From a virus: a stretch of DNA of 24,885 nt. Under the pieces are notes generated by a model, which made no database searches, was not told the DNA's origin, and saw only the letters and a program-made list of their open reading frames with translations. The stretch lies in UHGV virus genome UHGV-1445333, one strand, 5' to 3'. Both the position numbers and the translations under genes were made by a program. Positions 14,748-20,234 of the stretch are shown in pieces (the stretch's first letter is position 1; the number at the start of each line of letters is the position of its first letter).

Positions 14748-16628
14748 TTAATACTCCGTCACGTTTTCCTGTCGCCACGCCTCGTCATATTCCGATTTCG
14801 GCATATTGGCGATGTAGCTATATGGCGATCCTGATTCAAGTTGCAGGAACTGGTGCGATTGCTCGTCAAGGAACAACGGGACACCACCTTCCCAACCTTC
14901 GCCGTTACGTTGTTTTTCAAGCATCAAAACAGATGCCGGAGATGCCAGTAGCTGTTCGTCCTTCTCTGACATCTTTTCACCACTCTGAACTCTCTGTAAC
15001 GCTCTCTCGCGAGCCTTGTTACGCCAGATGATGAAAAGGTTGTCTGTCAGGTCTGTTATCGCTCCAGAGCCTTTTACGTCCATTTTCCCGGTTGGTTTTT
15101 CTTCGCTGTCACCTTTTCGCGAGTGAGTAACGAGAATGACGTGGGAGTTTGTTTTGTTTTTGAAATCGCAAATCGAGTCAACAAACGCCTTCTGCCCGTT
15201 ATAGTCATCGTCGCCTATGCCACATTTCATCAGGCTGTCGATGATGAATAACTGGATGCCGTATCGGCGGCGAGCGTAGTCGAATATTTCGATCAGCCTG
15301 TCGGCTTTCGCCGTTCCGGTCAGGCCAAACACCCAAAGTCTTTCGTCATAAAATTTAAATGCAGAGTCAATTTCCAGCACTGGCGGCATCTTGCAGCACG
15401 TCGCCTGACGGGTAAGGCGCTTAAGGAGAATACCAGGCTTCAGCTCAAGTGACGCGATGCACGTCTTCACACCCTGACGCATTGCCTCAAGTGCCATATG
15501 CCCGACAACCTCCGTTTTTCCGTGACCGTTCACACCATTGACCAGCGTCAACTCTGCCTCACGGAACTGGAATTTATCTGCCAGAGATTCCCACGGTGGA
15601 TTAAACAGATACTGCTGCTTGCCGTAGAAAGCGTTGATAGTGTCCTGGTAAAACTCTCGCGCACTGTAGAGTTCTTCAGGATCGAAGTAGGATGCCGTGC
15701 CGATGTACTGCCAGATTTCATCCTCGGTAACACCGTTCATCAGGCATTCGTTGATGTCTTTGTACGGCAGAGTAACAAGACGGCAACGATGTTCACCGAG
15801 TCGGCTTGCGATTTCCCTTGCGGCTTCACGACCAACATCATCAACGTCCATCGAGATGAATATTTCCTCAAACCTGTCGAGGTTGTGGTACTCAAACTCA
15901 ATCCACTGTTGCTTAGCGCCTTTCCCGCCACCAAACGGCACGGATAACGCCGAGATGCCGTATTGCGCATAGCTCATACAATCAATTTCGCCTTCGCAAA
16001 GTACAACCGCCCTCACGCCAGCGTCCAGAGCCTGCCATCCGAACAGACAAGGTTCGCAATCACCTTCTGCCATAATGACTTTCTTCCCGTCCGGGCGCTC
16101 AGTGCTGATTCGCTTGACCTGCAACAACTCACCATCGCGTTTGTACGGAAGCACCAGTGCATCAAGTTCTCGTTCTCCATTCCACACCTTGCCGCTGACA
16201 ACCTCGTAGCGCTTTACGACTTCTGGCGATATGCCACGCGATTGCAGGTACTCAAGATGGGATTCTGTTCTGGTAACGTAGCGGGCGATTTTCTTGCGGT
16301 CAGGTCTGGAGAATTTCTTCTCACGTCTGGCATCGAAATGGTGATCGTCATCCTTGATTCCGAGAAAGGCTTTCGCTTCCTGCATAGCCTGATGCAGGTT
16401 AATTCCACGACATGCCATCCACAAATCAAGCATGTCACCGCCGTCTCCCTCAGCGAAATCAGCCCATTTTTTCTTGCCGCTAAGGTTGACCTTAAGGCTG
16501 TTTCCCTTGTCACCGTTGACGTTACCGGCAACCCACTCATGCCCCTCTTTCTTGCCATTTGGCAACAGGTGCGGAGCCACCCTGTCAACCTGCGCCCAAA
16601 GCAGGTCGCTAAGTTCACTTGGCCTCAT
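14748..16628 (-). CDS. Bifunctional DNA primase (TOPRIM) / DnaB-family replicative helicase, 626 aa
   Basis: TOPRIM-like acidic motif (VVLCEGEIDCMSYAQYG) in the middle; Walker A (NGVNGHGKTE) and Walker B-like (LFIIDSL) in the C-terminal half; follows the O-like initiator in place of lambda P. Confidence 0.85.
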   Translation of the reverse strand: MRPSELSDLLWAQVDRVAPHLLPNGKKEGHEWVAGNVNGDKGNSLKVNLSGKKKWADFAEGDGGDMLDLWMACRGINLHQAMQEAKAFLGIKDDDHHFDARREKKFSRPDRKKIARYVTRTESHLEYLQSRGISPEVVKRYEVVSGKVWNGERELDALVLPYKRDGELLQVKRISTERPDGKKVIMAEGDCEPCLFGWQALDAGVRAVVLCEGEIDCMSYAQYGISALSVPFGGGKGAKQQWIEFEYHNLDRFEEIFISMDVDDVGREAAREIASRLGEHRCRLVTLPYKDINECLMNGVTEDEIWQYIGTASYFDPEELYSAREFYQDTINAFYGKQQYLFNPPWESLADKFQFREAELTLVNGVNGHGKTEVVGHMALEAMRQGVKTCIASLELKPGILLKRLTRQATCCKMPPVLEIDSAFKFYDERLWVFGLTGTAKADRLIEIFDYARRRYGIQLFIIDSLMKCGIGDDDYNGQKAFVDSICDFKNKTNSHVILVTHSRKGDSEEKPTGKMDVKGSGAITDLTDNLFIIWRNKARERALQRVQSGEKMSEKDEQLLASPASVLMLEKQRNGEGWEGGVPLFLDEQSHQFLQLESGSPYSYIANMPKSEYDEAWRQENVTEY

Positions 16629-16732
16629 GATTCCCTCAGATTGAAATTTTTAAACCAGAAATCGACAAACGAAATACTTAACCAGCCGTGGTTATAACCA
16701 GCGACCAGTAGCGATTTGATTTTTGATTTCAT
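16625..16732 (-). CDS. Possible 35-aa micro-ORF bridging the O and helicase genes
   Basis: Read by hand: ATG 3 nt after the O stop, TGA overlapping the helicase ATG (ATGA); product MKSKIKSLLVAGYNHGWLSISFVDFWFKNFNLRES; weak SD. Confidence 0.25.
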   Translation of the reverse strand: MKSKIKSLLVAGYNHGWLSISFVDFWFKNFNLRES

Positions 16733-16735
16733 GGT

Positions 16736-17596
16736 TCACCTGTCGAAAAACACGTAGCCAGTTTTCGATACGGTGATTGCGGATGATGGTTTGGATTGTG
16801 GTTGAATAGTTTCTGGCTTCTCGTCGTTCCAGCGTTGACCGTTCAGGTAGCTCGATGGTAACAACCTGTCGAATCCGAACTGCTTACCATTCCTGCATGC
16901 GATGTCTTCTGCCAGCATCGTGGCAAACTCGCTTGCCGTACCCCTGGTAGTTTTACGCCATTCCCTGAACTGTGTTCTGAATGCCGAAGCTGCGTTTTTC
17001 TTCCCGGCCTTCCGCATGCCTGCACACCAGAATATTTCCTCGAATGCCTTGTCGGTTTCTTCGTGACGGTCAGGTGATTTTTCACACTCCGTCCGAACAC
17101 TTTCGGACATAGTGTTTTTATTATTTCTTTTTTCTTTTGTAATAGTTTCTTTTGTGTGTCCCTGTTTTGGTGACAGCGCTGTCACCGTTTTGGTGACACT
17201 TTTTGTCACCAATGCAGTGACATTATCACCAGAGTAGTGACACCCTTCGATTTGCCATTCCTCGATGTTCTTGTTAGGCCCGATTTGCTGGCCTTCGCGA
17301 AGGATAACCTTCATCGCGATAAGCTCATTCTTGGCTTTGTTTACCTTCTGTCTTGGCAGCCGGGTAATTTGAGCTAACTGACTATCAGAGATGCGATCCA
17401 TCTTTTTACCGTAGCCGTATGTTTTACGGCATATGGCGTGGGCAACCTTGCTCTGATTTTTCGTTAAATCTGCGCCGATAAGCTCTTCATACAGGGCATT
17501 TGCAAGACGGGTATAACCATCTTCAACTTCTGCCACACGACGCTCCACAGGCCGTTGTGAAGGCCTTAAATGTGTTACGGTTGCAAGATTACTCAT
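16736..17596 (-). CDS. O: Replication initiator, lambda O-like, 286 aa
   Basis: N-terminal domain [55 protein letters not shown] aligns with lambda O (DGYARLSNMLLEAYSGADLTKRQFKVLLAILRKTYGWNKPMDRITDSQLSEITKL); iterons lie inside the gene as in lambda. Confidence 0.82.
17105..17246. repeat. Replication origin: four iterons with a roughly 22-23 bp period plus an adjacent AT-rich tract, inside the O-like gene
   Basis: GGTGACAGCGCTGTCACC (17169-17186), GGTGACACTTTTTGTCACC (17192-17210), GCAGTGACATTATCACC (17214-17230), GTAGTGACACCC (17235-17246); AT-rich 17105-17160 follows in the direction of O transcription, as in lambda ori. Confidence 0.6.
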
Positions 17597-17769: not shown

Positions 17770-18048
17770 TCAGGCCTCGAAGAATTCGCCGTTCTTCGGG
17801 GCTTTTTCTTTTGTCAGCATTCTGGCTACTTTCTTAGCCAGTTCCGCCAACTCCTCGTCTTCAACACCCCATTCAAGAACAGCCAGAAGCATTCCCATTT
17901 TTGGGATAAAGCTGTCTTTCCATCGCGAAATTTGCGATTCATTGATCCCTAATGCATCAGCAACCTTTCGCTGACCACGTACAGCAATTCGATTCAGGAT
18001 GTTGCTTGTAATTGCATTCGCTTTCTTGCGAGTACTTGTAAGTTCCAT
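17770..18048 (-). CDS. cII: CII transcriptional activator, 92 aa
   Basis: Track ORF trimmed to ATG 18048; upstream TAAGGAAATACTTACAT matches the lambda cII leader I recall; SQISRWK...[13 protein letters not shown] core matches lambda CII. Confidence 0.85.
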
Positions 18049-18107
18049 ATGTAAGTATTTCCTTAACAAATAAGAAGTTATGCGCATCAACTTATGCGCG
18101 TTGTATT

Positions 18108-18150
18108 CCCGCATTTCGGCGGGAATGAGGACCATGACTGTTAAAGAGCG
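18108..18150 (-). promoter_or_regulatory. nutR (boxA CGCTCTTTAACA + boxB hairpin)
   Basis: Minus strand: boxA CGCTCTTTAACA (18150-18139) and boxB CCCGC-CGAAAT-GCGGG (18123-18108), between cro and cII; boxB is identical to the one at nutL. Confidence 0.65.
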
Positions 18151-18156
18151 GTGTTA

Positions 18157-18351
18157 CTATTTGTTTTTCTTGTTGCTTGGGAAAGGACGAACTTCCTCTC
18201 CAATCACACTGCCATCAGGCTTTACCGTAACCATAATGTTACGGCCTGCCAGAATGGCCTTGCTGATAGCGCACTGGATTACACCAAAGTCACTGGCTGC
18301 TTTAGCCTGTCCATGGATTTTGGCGTAATCGGCAAGTGTCATTCGAATCAT
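18157..18351 (-). CDS. cro: Cro repressor, 64 aa
   Basis: Product [37 protein letters not shown]...PFPSNKK aligns with lambda Cro ([38 protein letters not shown]...); start at ATG 18351 with SD GGAGAG; the track ORF began at an upstream GTG. Confidence 0.85.
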
Positions 18352-18380
18352 ATGCACTCTCCGTTATTAACCATGAACAA

Positions 18381-18451
18381 AGAATACTACAGGTATTCAA
18401 AGCAATCAATACTTAGGGTATTTTTAGTTTAAGTACCTTAGCTATTAGAAT
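18381..18451. promoter_or_regulatory. Right operator region OR with divergent pR and pRM
   Basis: Three 15-bp sites AATAC-N5-GTATT (18383-18397, 18408-18422; weaker 18432-18446) centred about 24-25 bp apart; pR on minus strand TTGATT-17-TATTCT flanking the first site; pRM on plus strand with -10 TAGAAT 7 nt before the cI ATG (leaderless, as in lambda). Confidence 0.6.
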
Positions 18452-18457
18452 TAAGCT

Positions 18458-19174
18458 ATGGAAAATAAAAAATCACTGACGACAGAACAGCTGGAAGACG
18501 CTAAGCGGCTTAAGGCTTTGTATGAGTCAAAAAAGAAAGAATTGGGAATAACCCAATACTCAATCGCTGATGAACTGGGTATCACCCAAGGAGCGGTAGG
18601 GCATTATCTTAATGGCAGAAATGCGCTAAACGTTGAGGTTGCATCTGGTTTTGCACGATTGTTGCAAGTCTCAATTGCTGATTTTAGCCAGTCAATTGCT
18701 GCCAAGGTTGCAGAACAGGCAGAAAGCCTTAAGAGCGATGCCAACGTAAGGTATGCAGGGGAATACAGAGCAGGAAAGAGGTATCCGGTGTTAAGCAGTA
18801 TCCAGGCTGGCTCGTGGTGTGAAGCATGCGAACCATACACCATTAAAGACATAGATGTTTGGCTTGAGTCTGACGCGCATATTCAAGGTAATGCGTTCTG
18901 GCTTAAAGTGGAAGGTGATTCAATGACGGCACCGGTTGGGTTAAGCATTCCAGAGGGAACATTCGTTCTTTTCGATACCGGAAGGGAGGCGATCAACGGC
19001 AGCTTGGTCATAGCAAAACTTTCTGACTCTAACGAAGCAACATTCAAGAAGCTGATAATCGACGGCGGAAATAAATACCTCAAGGGACTTAATCCTGCAT
19101 GGCCTCTCGTGCCAATCAATGGAAACTGCAAGATTATAGGCGTTGCAATTGAGACAAAACTCAGACTGGTTTGA
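18458..19174 (+). CDS. cI: CI repressor (HTH plus S24 LexA-like autocleavage domain), 238 aa
   Basis: N-terminal block LTTEQLEDAKRLKALYESKKKELG parallels lambda CI; Ala-Gly cleavage site (SIQAGSW), catalytic Ser in GDSM and Lys in FKKL; no SD, consistent with a leaderless pRM transcript. Confidence 0.9.
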   Translation: MENKKSLTTEQLEDAKRLKALYESKKKELGITQYSIADELGITQGAVGHYLNGRNALNVEVASGFARLLQVSIADFSQSIAAKVAEQAESLKSDANVRYAGEYRAGKRYPVLSSIQAGSWCEACEPYTIKDIDVWLESDAHIQGNAFWLKVEGDSMTAPVGLSIPEGTFVLFDTGREAINGSLVIAKLSDSNEATFKKLIIDGGNKYLKGLNPAWPLVPINGNCKIIGVAIETKLRLV

Positions 19175-19192
19175 TCACGCAAGGGGGCGCTT

Positions 19193-19561
19193 ATGGTTGG
19201 AACCGCTATAGCAAGCTTTTTTGGGATGTTGGCAATCTCGACAATTTACGGCTTAGCGCATGCTTTTATTGCGAAATCTCTATCAGAAAAAATAAGCCAG
19301 GCTTGGGCGCATAGATCAGCTCGTTTCATGATTCTGGTGATCATAGCAATACAAGGGATATCTGCATTTATCCTCTATGGATCAAGCTTATACCTATTGT
19401 ATCAAGGCGCGACATTTACGCCTTACACCAGTGATTACGGAACTCTATACGATGGTAGTGAAGACATCACTGTGGCTTGGATCGTCTTTGGTTTATCTAT
19501 GGCCGTGTCTGTTGTAGCAGACATCATTAAGGTAATTCTCGTCTTAACCTTCGCTGACTAA
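19193..19561 (+). CDS. Membrane protein (3 predicted TM helices), 122 aa, directly downstream of cI
   Basis: Strong SD AAGGGGG 5 nt before ATG; 18-nt gap after cI, same strand, no intervening promoter seen; three hydrophobic segments; occupies the lambda rexA/rexB position. Confidence 0.6.
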   Translation: MVGTAIASFFGMLAISTIYGLAHAFIAKSLSEKISQAWAHRSARFMILVIIAIQGISAFILYGSSLYLLYQGATFTPYTSDYGTLYDGSEDITVAWIVFGLSMAVSVVADIIKVILVLTFAD

Positions 19562-19692
19562 CCTATAATCCCGGCAGCAATAGCTATCGGGATCCACTTC
19601 ACATATCCCGCATAAAAAGCACTGAACAAGCAGACACCGAAAAAATAAATATCCTTTGTATTCATTTGCTTATCATTATTTCATCAAAAATA

Positions 19693-19734
19693 AATACCTT
19701 GGGTATTTACACAATAAAATACCTACAGTATTCT
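19693..19734 (+). promoter_or_regulatory. Left operator OL with pL
   Basis: Two operator sites of the OR family: AATACCTTGGGTATT (19693-19707) and AATACCTACAGTATT (19718-19732); pL -35 TTTACA (19706-19711), 17-bp spacer, -10 TATTCT (19729-19734), directed towards N. Confidence 0.6.
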
Positions 19735-19779
19735 TTAGCCATCAGCAGGACGCTGGAAGCCAAACGGAACAGATTGGCA

Positions 19780-19820
19780 GGCTCTTTAACATTGATGGGA
19801 TTGTCCCGCCGAAATGCGGG
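19780..19820 (+). promoter_or_regulatory. nutL (boxA GGCTCTTTAACA + boxB hairpin)
   Basis: BoxA-like GCTCTTTAACA at 19781-19791 and boxB CCCGC-CGAAAT-GCGGG at 19805-19820, about 40 nt downstream of the pL start and upstream of N. Confidence 0.65.
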
Positions 19821-19928
19821 AACCAAAGAGTAGTTGGCTTTGGGGTGACGTGAAGTGCAGCTGCACGACGGCAACCGGAAGATAAGCACCCGGCGCGTCA
19901 CCGCCAAAGTCAATCATCGGAGGTCAAC

Positions 19929-20234
19929 ATGACAGTAGTCATTACATATCTGGCTGAGGATAACGCCAGAAATCGCCGCAGAGCACGCAGACAGGCTCAA
20001 CGTGAACAGGCAATGCAAGAGCAGCGACTGGCGCGAAAAATTGCGCTAAAGCTCTCTGGTTGCGTCAGAGCAGACAAAGCAGCATCACTCGGAAGCCTTC
20101 GCTGCAAGAAGGCAGAAGAAGTCGAGCGTAAACAGAACCGTATTTACTACCGCAAGCCACGCAGTGAAATGGGTGTGACTTGTGTTGGTCGCCAGAAACA
20201 ACGCGGAAAATCAATTCCAGCTTATTACGATTGA
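19929..20234 (+). CDS. N: N-type antitermination protein, 101 aa
   Basis: First pL gene after nutL; N-terminal arginine-rich motif (NARNRRRARRQAQREQAM) like lambdoid N proteins; SD GGAGG 5 nt before ATG. Confidence 0.75.
   Translation: MTVVITYLAEDNARNRRRARRQAQREQAMQEQRLARKIALKLSGCVRADKAASLGSLRCKKAEEVERKQNRIYYRKPRSEMGVTCVGRQKQRGKSIPAYYD

What the first reader, a model, noticed from the sequence alone, without database searches (positions are those of the whole stretch)
18381..19734. Immunity specificity: operators of the form AATAC-N5-GTATT at OR and OL
Five sites share palindromic AATAC...GTATT arms (three at OR, two at OL), unlike lambda's 17-bp operators. pR (TTGATT-17-TATTCT), pL (TTTACA-17-TATTCT) and a leaderless pRM (TAGAAT 7 nt before the cI ATG) overlap them with lambda-like geometry. 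This defines the immunity type and predicts the repressor recognition sequence.
Basis: seen in the sequence. Interest (0 to 1): 0.4.

Follow-up and report, generated by a model that had tools for sequence, protein, structure and literature searches.

The report
HK620-type phage repressor operators, already annotated
The repeated AATAC-N5-GTATT palindromes are real and are almost certainly the binding sites of this prophage's CI and Cro repressors, but the same sites were already annotated in coliphage HK620 in 2001, so this is an ordinary, known lambda-style genetic switch.

Summary
AATACNNNNNGTATT occurs exactly four times in 24.9 kb (0.01 expected), at 18383, 18408, 19693 and 19718. A fifth, degenerate copy (OR3) sits at 18432, and the stated promoter hexamers are present.

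The region is 99.1-99.5% identical to the immunity regions of coliphages HK620, mEpX2, HK630 and HK140. The HK620 GenBank record already annotates these five sites as 17-bp OR1-3 and OL1-2, with pR and pL.

New support comes from 26 diverged prophages whose CI carries the same recognition helix (QGAVGHY). All keep the arms at the same distances from the cI start while the central bases vary freely. Of 56 loci that share only CI's C-terminal domain, 49 have fewer than two such sites; the other seven belong to sister helix classes that pair with related TATAC- or ATTAC-armed palindromes.

Two corrections:
- The sites are not "unlike lambda's". They use lambda's 17-bp frame (half-site nAATACYn versus TATCACCG), and CI and Cro are lambda's closest relatives among solved structures.
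- OL probably has a third site at 19647-19663, not where HK620 annotates OL3.

No binding experiment was found. Already known; low interest.

The parts
18157..18351 (-). cro (64 aa), a lambda-Cro-family lytic repressor with recognition helix QCAISKAIL
   Evidence: ORF list. Pfam PF09048 Cro, E 3.6e-26. 59% identical to lambda Cro. Best solved relative is lambda Cro 5CRO/6CRO. Same coordinates as HK620 cro.
18381..18409 (-). pR: -35 TTGATT (18409-18404), 17-nt spacer, -10 TATTCT (18386-18381). Predicted +1 near 18374.
   Evidence: Read from the sequence. Coincides with the HK620-annotated pR. The TATTnT -10 is conserved in relatives.
18382..18398 (.). OR1, GAATACTACAGGTATTC (perfect arms). Centre about -16 from the predicted pR start; overlaps the pR -10 and spacer.
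   Evidence: PWM 18.0 bits, rank 4 of 24,869.
18407..18423 (.). OR2, CAATACTTAGGGTATTT (perfect arms). Overlaps the pR -35, abuts the presumed pRM -35, and is centred at -43 from the cI ATG.
   Evidence: PWM 21.6 bits, rank 1. The only operator difference from HK620/mEpX2 is the central base 18414.
18431..18447 (.). OR3, AAGTACCTTAGCTATTA (2 arm mismatches). Centre at -19 from the cI ATG; overlaps the pRM -10.
   Evidence: PWM 11.4 bits, rank 5. In relatives the left arm is degenerate and the right arm invariant.
18446..18458 (+). pRM -10 TAGAAT (18446-18451), then six bases, then the A of the cI ATG (18458) as the presumed +1. The mRNA would be leaderless, with no Shine-Dalgarno sequence.
   Evidence: Sequence. 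A TAnnAT hexamer at -12..-7 (window numbering; one base further upstream in loci with a 7-nt gap) and the lack of an SD are conserved in 23 of the 26 relatives; the three Microbulbifer loci read TAACCT or TAATCT. Not annotated in the HK620 record. The transcript start is inferred, not shown.
18458..19174 (+). cI (238 aa): HTH domain plus S24 autopeptidase domain, recognition helix QGAVGHYLN
   Evidence: Pfam HTH_3 and Peptidase_S24. 42% identical to lambda CI. Best solved relative is lambda repressor 3BDN, E 2.9e-52.
19193..19561 (+). hkaS-like hydrophobic ORF (122 aa) co-oriented with cI, sitting where lambda has rexAB
   Evidence: ORF list. Annotated hkaS, 'unknown', in HK620. No Pfam family above cut-off.
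19647..19663 (.). Probable third OL operator, AAATATCCTTTGTATTC (1 arm mismatch). 45 bp from OL2; centre about -86 from the predicted pL start.
   Evidence: PWM 10.7 bits, rank 6 of 24,869; the next best 17-mer scores 6.3. Equivalent -45 sites occur in L030 (0 mismatches), L011 (1), and L004, L012, L013, L063 (2). HK620 annotates this palindrome as terminator tIMM, but the hairpin is only -0.6 kcal/mol, z +0.25.
19692..19708 (.). OL2, AAATACCTTGGGTATTT (perfect arms). Overlaps the pL -35.
   Evidence: PWM 21.5 bits, rank 2.
19717..19733 (.). OL1, AAATACCTACAGTATTC (perfect arms). Overlaps the pL spacer and -10.
   Evidence: PWM 19.4 bits, rank 3.
19706..19734 (+). pL: TTTACA, 17 nt, TATTCT. 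Predicted +1 at A19741.
   Evidence: Consensus scan. HK620 annotation. The bases from 19741, ATCAGCAGGACGC, are identical to the lambda sequence just downstream of its pL -10.
19929..20234 (+). N-like antiterminator, the first gene of the pL operon
   Evidence: ORF list. Annotated N in HK620. Weak Pfam N_peptide hit below cut-off.

Best explanation
This is the immunity region of an HK620-type lambdoid (P22-like) prophage, and it works as a lambda-style bistable switch. CI dimers, and Cro dimers during lytic growth, would bind 17-bp pseudo-palindromes with half-site nAATACYn. Three sites lie between the divergent cro and cI genes (OR1-3). Two, probably three, lie upstream of N (OL1-2 plus 19647-19663).

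CI on OR1/OR2 and OL1/OL2 (perfect arms, 25 bp centre to centre) would block pR and pL by covering their -35, spacer and -10 elements. CI at OR2, centred at -43 from the cI start, would be placed to activate the leaderless pRM. The degenerate OR3, which overlaps the pRM -10, would shut pRM off when bound by high CI or by Cro.

Specificity differs from lambda mainly at half-site positions 3 and 4 (AT instead of TC), and the helix residues next to the conserved Gln differ too (CI S45G/G46A; Cro S28C/N31S).

Shown here: the sites, their geometry, their homology, and their co-variation with the CI helix class. Inferred by analogy with lambda: binding itself, occupancy order, cooperativity and transcript starts.
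For: - Enrichment: 4 exact sites against 0.01 expected.
- Gene order is cro<-OR->cI-hkaS-OL->N.
- The same five sites, pR and pL are annotated in HK620 AF335538 at 99.1% identity. The only operator difference from HK620/mEpX2 is a central base.
- CI has HTH plus S24 domains and Cro is in PF09048. Their closest solved relatives are lambda CI and lambda Cro.
- All 26 diverged loci (CI 43-76% identical; Lelliottia, Tatumella, Serratia, Pantoea, Proteus, Providencia, Yersinia, Microbulbifer and others) with helix [ST]QGAVGHY have 2-3 sites at about -74, -50 and -26 from the cI ATG.
- Those 26 loci hold 67 exact sites in 144 kb. The 56 loci with other N-terminal domains hold 1 in 300 kb (Fisher p 4e-15). 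All 119 sites with at most one mismatch lie at OR or downstream of cI, mostly in 24-25-bp OL pairs.
- The arms carry about 2 bits per position and the centre about 0-0.4 bits.
- A PWM trained on relatives only ranks OR2, OL2, OL1, OR1, OR3 and 19647-19663 as the six best 17-mers of the window.
- The published Cro 'evolutionary code' (Gln H1 with A+2, Ala H3 with A+5, Lys H6 with G-6; PMC6649833) predicts A2, A5 and C6, exactly what the half-site shows in lambda's register.
- Cronobacter phage ENT39118 keeps Gln-Ser in its CI helix and has lambda-like TATCACCG-type sites.
- mEpX2, with a 99.5% identical region, belongs experimentally to an immunity group separate from lambda (PMC3442831).
Against: I found no binding, footprinting or transcript-mapping data for this immunity type in the held literature. 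The original HK620 paper could not be read. pR matches consensus at only 8 of 12 positions and was not picked by the scan. The relatives are not phylogenetically independent, so the Fisher p-value overstates the evidence. The 25-bp O1-O2 spacing is one base more than lambda's 24, so cooperativity is assumed, not shown; 933W repressor shows that lambdoid CIs need not be cooperative (PMC3317979). The roles assigned to CI S45G/G46A and Cro S28C/N31S rest on my recollection of the lambda co-crystal contacts, not on a test here.
Confidence: 0.9

Rival explanations
1. The palindromes are incidental by-products of AT-rich promoter sequence. The GTATT arm supplies part of the TATTCT -10 hexamers, so the repeats would not be dedicated protein-binding sites.
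For: The outer arms of OR1 and OL1 overlap the -10 hexamers of pR and pL. The right arm of OR3 overlaps the pRM -10. The region is AT-rich.
Against: OR2 and OL2 have perfect arms that are not -10 hexamers. Both arms are kept at about 2 bits in 21-22 distinct sequences per site while the five central bases drift. The motif tracks the CI recognition-helix class and is absent at the same promoters of loci with other CI N-terminal domains. Shuffles that keep dinucleotide content give 0.01 expected.
Confidence: 0.03
2. The sites are operators, but for only one of the two regulators, or for a different phage or host protein. Cro, for example, might recognise other determinants in the same region.
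For: Neither protein has been tested. In the three Microbulbifer relatives the same operators sit next to a gene whose product is not lambda-Cro-like. The Cro family can therefore change without the operator changing.
Against: The Cro code positions H1, H3 and H6 of this Cro predict A2, A5 and C6, as observed. Enterobacterial relatives with these operators keep Q-x-A-I-S-K in Cro. In every studied lambdoid switch CI and Cro share operators (PMC6649833; PMC2629481).
Confidence: 0.05
3. The palindrome at 19647-19663 is not an operator. It would instead be the tIMM terminator annotated in HK620, or simply part of a conserved A-rich UP-like element upstream of pL, with the real OL3 at 19670-19686.
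For: HK620 annotates tIMM over this palindrome and places OL3 at the position equivalent to 19670-19686. The left part, AAAAAATAAAT, is conserved even in relatives whose third site lies at -21 from OL2, and in lambda itself. Part of the resemblance to a half-site may therefore be inherited from that motif.
Against: The hairpin is -0.6 kcal/mol, no better than shuffles. The site at 19670-19686 scores -30 bits, rank 7293 of 24,869, while 19647-19663 scores 10.7 bits, rank 6, similar to OR3. Relatives without a -21 site carry a two-armed site at -45 instead: L030 exact, L011 one mismatch.
Confidence: 0.4

Closest known systems
Coliphage HK620 immunity region (GenBank AF335538; Clark et al. 2001, J Mol Biol 311:657); also mEpX2, HK630, HK140, HF4s, phi296 and phi367
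   Same: 99.1-99.5% nucleotide identity over cro-OR-cI-hkaS-OL and the start of N. The arm sequences of OR1, OR2, OR3, OL1 and OL2 are identical. The same pR and pL are already annotated as 17-bp operators and promoters.
   Different: One central base of OR2 differs (18414, T versus C). The surrounding genome is a different mosaic: a primase-helicase replication module instead of HK620's O/P, and no phage record covers more than 56% of the window. My analysis puts the third OL site at 19647-19663, not at HK620's annotated OL3.
Bacteriophage lambda OR/OL switch (CI, Cro, pR, pL, leaderless pRM)
   Same: Both have a 17-bp operator frame centred on a base pair, with three sites at OR. Centre spacings are 25/24 bp here and 24/23 bp in lambda. 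OR3 is centred at -19 and OR2 at -43 from the cI ATG here; by my reckoning the lambda values are -19 and -42. Half-site positions A2, A5, C6 and a pyrimidine at 7 are shared. CI is 42% and Cro 59% identical, with Q33, Q44, N52 and N55 of CI and Q, A and K of the Cro helix conserved. The first bases of the pL transcript, ATCAGCAGGACGC, are identical.
   Different: The half-site is nAATACYn rather than TATCACCG: positions 1, 3, 4 and 8 differ. CI carries S45G, G46A and A49H; Cro carries S28C, N31S and H35L. OR and OL are about 1.3 kb apart, compared with about 2.4 kb in lambda, because a single small ORF replaces rexAB. The near-identical mEpX2 is in a different immunity group from lambda.
Cro 'evolutionary code' (Hall, Lefevre and Cordes 2005; Hall et al. 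2011; summarised in PMC6649833)
   Same: Gln at H1, Ala at H3 and Lys at H6 of this Cro go with A+2, A+5 and C+6 (G-6), as the code states.
   Different: The code says nothing about positions 3 and 4, which are what distinguish this operator from lambda's. I could not check whether HK620 Cro was in the original data set.

Membership tests
Lambda-type CI/Cro immunity switch | Divergently transcribed cI and cro genes separated by a short tripartite operator region | tested here: met
   cro is at 18157-18351 (-) and cI at 18458-19174 (+). The 106-bp spacer holds three sites centred at 18390, 18415 and 18439.
Lambda-type CI/Cro immunity switch | CI has an N-terminal HTH DNA-binding domain and a C-terminal LexA-like S24 autopeptidase domain | tested here: met
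   Pfam HTH_3 (E 8e-10) and Peptidase_S24 (E 5e-24), both above cut-off. Full-length match to lambda repressor 3BDN.
Lambda-type CI/Cro immunity switch | Cro belongs to the lambda Cro family | tested here: met
   PF09048, 91.3 bits against a cut-off of 32.7. 59% identical to lambda Cro.
Lambda-type CI/Cro immunity switch | A second operator cluster (OL) overlaps pL upstream of an N-type antiterminator | tested here: met
   OL1 and OL2 at 19717-19733 and 19692-19708 overlap TTTACA-17-TATTCT. An N-like ORF starts at 19929.
Lambda-type CI/Cro immunity switch | 17-bp pseudo-symmetric operators whose symmetry axis lies on a base pair | tested here: met
   The odd-length palindrome AATAC-N5-GTATT plus one flanking base on each side gives the same frame as the lambda sites in NC_001416.
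Lambda-type CI/Cro immunity switch | CI and Cro physically bind the operators with opposite site preferences; CI binds cooperatively and activates pRM from OR2 | not testable with these tools
   This needs EMSA, footprinting or reporter assays. No such data were found in the literature searches.
Lambda-type CI/Cro immunity switch | The maintenance transcript from pRM is leaderless, starting at the cI AUG | tested here: inconclusive
   TAGAAT ends 6 nt before the ATG and there is no SD. The same arrangement is conserved in 23 of the 26 relatives. The transcript start was not measured.
HK620/mEpX2 immunity type | Same cI, cro and operator sequences as the type phages | tested here: met
   99.1-99.5% identity. 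The first 120 residues of CI are 100% identical to mEpX2, phi296 and HK140. The operator arms are identical.
HK620/mEpX2 immunity type | Cross-immunity: lysogens of HK620 or mEpX2 repress this phage, and vice versa | not testable with these tools
   This needs plating on lysogens.
Lambda immunity (imm-lambda) | Operators match the lambda half-site TATCACCGC | tested here: not met
   The half-site here is nAATACYn; positions 1, 3, 4 and 8 differ. mEpX2 is reported in an immunity group separate from lambda.

The most novel reading that the evidence does not exclude
The palindrome at 19647-19663 is a genuine third OL operator that HK620's annotation mislabels as a terminator. It overlaps the counterpart of lambda's OL-proximal A-rich UP element (AAAAAATAAAT, shared with lambda at the same relative position). 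CI or Cro bound there would then gate UP-element function, either in stimulating pL or in long-range, loop-mediated activation of pRM.
Probability: 0.3. Interest if true: 0.3.

Novelty: already known. Interest (0 to 1): 0.12.

Why it matters
It matters little as a discovery, because the operators, pR and pL were annotated in HK620 in 2001. The module is common: 146 of 5,426 complete E. coli genomes, 16 phage records covering at least 80% of the region (including two Stx2c-converting phages), and homologues with 43-76% CI identity in 26 other species genomes.

It does have modest practical value:
- It allows this prophage to be assigned to the HK620/mEpX2 immunity type, which predicts its superinfection immunity.
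- The 26-genome footprint gives a well-defined recognition sequence, nAATACYn, for a CI/Cro pair that is lambda's close relative in the same 17-bp frame. That makes a convenient natural case for studying how two repressors and their shared operator change specificity together.
- It suggests a correction to the position of HK620's OL3.

Tried and rejected
- Rfam scan of the whole window: no family reached its gathering score.
- The HK620 'tIMM' hairpin over 19636-19676 folds at -0.6 kcal/mol on the plus strand and -2.8 on the minus strand, no better than shuffles. I rejected it as an intrinsic terminator.
- HK620's annotated OL3 position (19670-19686) scores -30 bits with the relatives' PWM. 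I rejected it as an operator of this specificity.
- A 35-codon hydrophobic antisense ORF (19665-19558, minus strand) starts inside the -45 palindrome. In relatives the equivalent frame is only 8-14 codons (read from the sequences), so a conserved peptide is unlikely. I did not pursue it.
- Literature searches for binding or footprinting data on HK620/mEpX2 CI, Cro or operators found none. The Clark 2001, Hall 2005, Hall 2011 and Cui 2013 papers are not held.
- The consensus promoter scan did not call pR, which matches at 8 of 12 positions. I kept it on positional, homology and conservation grounds.
- Structure prediction, fold search and the large protein-database searches were not used. Sequence matches to lambda CI and Cro and to HK620 were already decisive.
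Full report
**1. What is in the sequence**

The stretch 18157-20234 has the gene order of a lambdoid immunity region read right to left:
- cro, 18157-18351, minus strand
- a 106-bp spacer
- cI, 18458-19174, plus strand
- a hydrophobic ORF, 19193-19561
- a 367-bp non-coding stretch
- an N-like ORF starting at 19929

The exact pattern AATACNNNNNGTATT occurs four times in the 24,885-bp window, at 18383, 18408, 19693 and 19718. Dinucleotide-preserving shuffles give 0.01 expected, and none of 100 shuffles reach four.

- pR, minus strand: TTGATT (18409-18404), 17 nt, TATTCT (18386-18381)
- pL: TTTACA (19706-19711), 17 nt, TATTCT (19729-19734), also found by the consensus scan
- pRM: TAGAAT (18446-18451), six bases, then the cI ATG

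The one nuance is that the fifth site only approximates the arms.

**2. It is a known module**

Window 18100-19950 is 99.1-99.5% identical to coliphages mEpX2, HK620, HK630, HK140, HF4s, phi296 and phi367. In all, 16 phage records cover at least 80% of it.

The HK620 GenBank record (AF335538) already annotates OR1, OR2, OR3, OL1 and OL2 as 17-bp sites, and also pR and pL. The only operator difference between the window and HK620/mEpX2 is 18414, a central base of OR2.

The cro-OR-cI block is present in 146 of 5,426 complete E. coli genomes. The rest of the window is a different mosaic of a P22-like phage; no phage record covers more than 56% of it.

**3. An independent test with relatives**

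A scan of one genome per species returned 80 loci encoding CI relatives. Together with Serratia phage OS31 (L004), 26 loci carry the same recognition helix, [ST]QGAVGHY. Their hosts include Lelliottia, Siccibacter, Enterobacter, Tatumella, Lonsdalea, Serratia, Pantoea, Providencia, Proteus, Yersinia, Pectobacterium, Scandinavium, Kluyvera and Microbulbifer, and CI identity ranges from 43% to 76%. Every one has two or three AATAC-N5-GTATT sites at about -74, -50 and -26 from the cI ATG.

The remaining 56 loci comprise 55 from the scan, which mostly share only the C-terminal domain and have P22-c2-like, 434-like or other N-terminal domains, plus Cronobacter phage ENT39118 (L005). Most lack such sites:
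- Exact sites: 67 in 144 kb for the 26 loci, against 1 in 300 kb for the other 56.
- Loci with at least two exact sites: 21 of 26 against 0 of 56 (Fisher p 4e-15). The loci are not independent, so this overstates the evidence.
- All 119 sites with at most one mismatch in the 26 loci lie at OR or downstream of cI, mostly in 24-25-bp OL pairs.
- Seven of the other 56 loci do have two or more near-matches. They belong to sister helix classes: six ITKGAVSHWLN loci (L023, L024, L026, L027, L032, L034) with TATAC-armed palindromes, and L065 (ITQGAVAHWLNK) with ATTAC/GTAAT-like arms.

Across 21-22 distinct sequences per operator, the arm positions carry about 2 bits and the central bases 0-0.4 bits. 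Centre spacings are 24-25 bp for OR1-OR2 and 23-24 bp for OR2-OR3. OR3 has a degenerate left arm and an invariant right arm.

A TAnnAT hexamer ending 6-7 nt before the ATG, with no Shine-Dalgarno sequence, is conserved in 23 of the 26 relatives. The three Microbulbifer loci read TAACCT or TAATCT instead. This supports a leaderless pRM.

**4.

CI is 42% and Cro 59% identical to lambda's, and lambda CI (3BDN) and lambda Cro (5CRO/6CRO) are the closest solved structures. Pfam places the proteins in HTH_3 plus Peptidase_S24, and in Cro.

Written as 17-mers, the sites use lambda's frame, with the symmetry axis on a base pair. The half-site is nAATACYn against lambda's TATCACCG. A2, A5, C6 and the pyrimidine at 7 are shared, while positions 1, 3, 4 and 8 differ.

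The published Cro 'evolutionary code' pairs Gln H1 with A+2, Ala H3 with A+5 and Lys H6 with G-6 (PMC6649833). This Cro's helix, QCAISK, therefore predicts A2, A5 and C6. By inspection, only the lambda register satisfies all three.

CI keeps Q33, Q44, N52 and N55 but changes S45 to G and G46 to A. Cro changes S28 to C and N31 to S. From my recollection of the lambda co-crystal structures, which I did not check with a tool, the Ser next to the Gln reads base pair 4. That is one of the positions that changed here. Consistently, Cronobacter phage ENT39118 retains Gln-Ser in its CI helix and has lambda-like TATCACCG-type sites.

The geometry is almost superimposable on lambda's:
- OR3 centre is at -19 and OR2 at -43 from the cI ATG (lambda: -19 and -42, coordinates).
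- OR1 and OL1 centres are about -16, and OR2 and OL2 about -41, from the predicted pR and pL starts.
- The bases following the predicted pL start (19741, ATCAGCAGGACGC) are identical to lambda's.

mEpX2 is reported to belong to an immunity group separate from lambda (PMC3442831). The small operator difference therefore appears sufficient for heteroimmunity.

**5. The third OL site**

HK620's record places OL3 at the equivalent of 19670-19686 and labels the palindrome at about 19642-19672 as terminator tIMM.

I built a PWM from the relatives' OR1, OR2, OL1 and OL2 sites only. It ranks the window's 17-mers as follows:

| Rank | Site | Score (bits) |
|---|---|---|
| 1 | OR2 | 21.6 |
| 2 | OL2 | 21.5 |
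| 3 | OL1 | 19.4 |
| 4 | OR1 | 18.0 |
| 5 | OR3 | 11.4 |
| 6 | 19647-19663 | 10.7 |
| 7 | next best 17-mer | 6.3 |
| 7293 | 19670-19686 (HK620's OL3) | -30 |

The 'tIMM' hairpin is -0.6 kcal/mol, z +0.25.

Relatives fall into several arrangements. Some have a third site 21 bp from OL2 (L010, L014-L017, L022). Some have a two-armed site 45 bp from OL2: L030 exact, L011 with one mismatch, and L004, L012, L013 and L063 with two, like the window. L007 and L008 have one at 30 bp, and L006, L018, L019 and the Microbulbifer loci have none within two mismatches.

One caution applies. The left part of the -45 element, AAAAAATAAAT, is conserved even in the -21 group and in lambda. Lambda is reported to have an OL-proximal UP element (PMC3708714, citing Giladi 1998 and Cui 2013). 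I could not confirm that this motif is that element. I put the chance that 19647-19663 is a real operator at about 0.6.

**6. Mechanism and verdict**

The best explanation, at confidence 0.9, is a lambda-type switch of the HK620 immunity type. CI on O1/O2 represses pR and pL. OR2-bound CI activates a leaderless pRM, and the weak OR3 gives negative autoregulation and serves as a Cro target. The sites, geometry, homology and co-variation are shown here. Binding, cooperativity, order of occupancy and transcript starts are inferred by analogy.

No experimental binding data were found. The finding is correct but already known, so interest is low.

Noticed in passing
window 19640-19665; L003 (lambda) about 267-283; relatives: An A-rich motif, AAAAAATAAAT(A/T)(C/T)C, sits about 45-50 bp upstream of OL2 in nearly all enterobacterial relatives. 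It is at the same relative position upstream of OL3 in lambda, despite lambda's different operator specificity. It may be the counterpart of lambda's OL-proximal UP element (Giladi 1998 and Cui 2013, as cited in PMC3708714), but I could not confirm the element's exact position.
   Followed up: partly
window 19670-19686 versus 19647-19663; L001 3043-3086: HK620's GenBank annotation of OL3 (TTATCATTATTTCATCA) does not resemble the operator consensus: -30 bits, rank 7293 of 24,869. The palindrome it labels as terminator tIMM scores like OR3 (10.7 bits, rank 6) and is a negligible hairpin (-0.6 kcal/mol).
   Followed up: yes
window 19558-19665, minus strand: A 35-codon hydrophobic antisense ORF (MNTKDIYFFGVCLFSAFYAGYVKWIPIAIAAGIIG) starts inside the -45 palindrome. 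The start, M-x-x-x-x-I-Y-F, recurs in relatives, but their frames end after 8-14 codons. The conservation is therefore probably at the DNA level.
   Followed up: partly
window 19568-19593: A strong GC-rich hairpin (-14.1 kcal/mol, z -2.2) lies immediately after the hkaS-like stop codon, with no U-run after it. It is a better candidate than 'tIMM' for ending or stabilising the cI-hkaS transcript.
   Followed up: no
L023, L024, L026, L027, L032, L034 (about 70 bp upstream of cI, and pairs 25 bp apart downstream): A sister specificity class: CI homologues with helix ITKGAVSHWLN (Lys in place of the Gln before G-A-V) go with TATACA-N3-TGTAT(T/A) palindromes in the same OR/OL layout. This looks like a natural specificity switch at the outer half-site position.
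   Followed up: partly
L064, L066, L067 (Microbulbifer): These marine gammaproteobacterial prophages have CI with the same QGAVGHY helix (43-45% identity) and the same AATAC-N5-GTATT operators. The divergent upstream gene is not lambda-Cro-like, so the operator follows the CI helix rather than the Cro family.
   Followed up: partly
L004 2453-3211 (Serratia phage vB_SspS_OS31, cI annotation): The annotated cI start lies inside OR2. The homologous start (MESKKS...) is at 2501, preceded by TAGAAT and 7 nt, so the deposited start is probably 16 codons too early.
   Followed up: no
window 17770-18135 (minus strand) and 14748-17596: The mosaic boundaries lie just outside the immunity module. The cII-like ORF matches Pfam Phage_CII only from residue 30, so its real start is probably MELTST.... 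Replication genes are an O-like protein plus a 626-aa primase-helicase fusion, unlike HK620's O/P pair.
   Followed up: no
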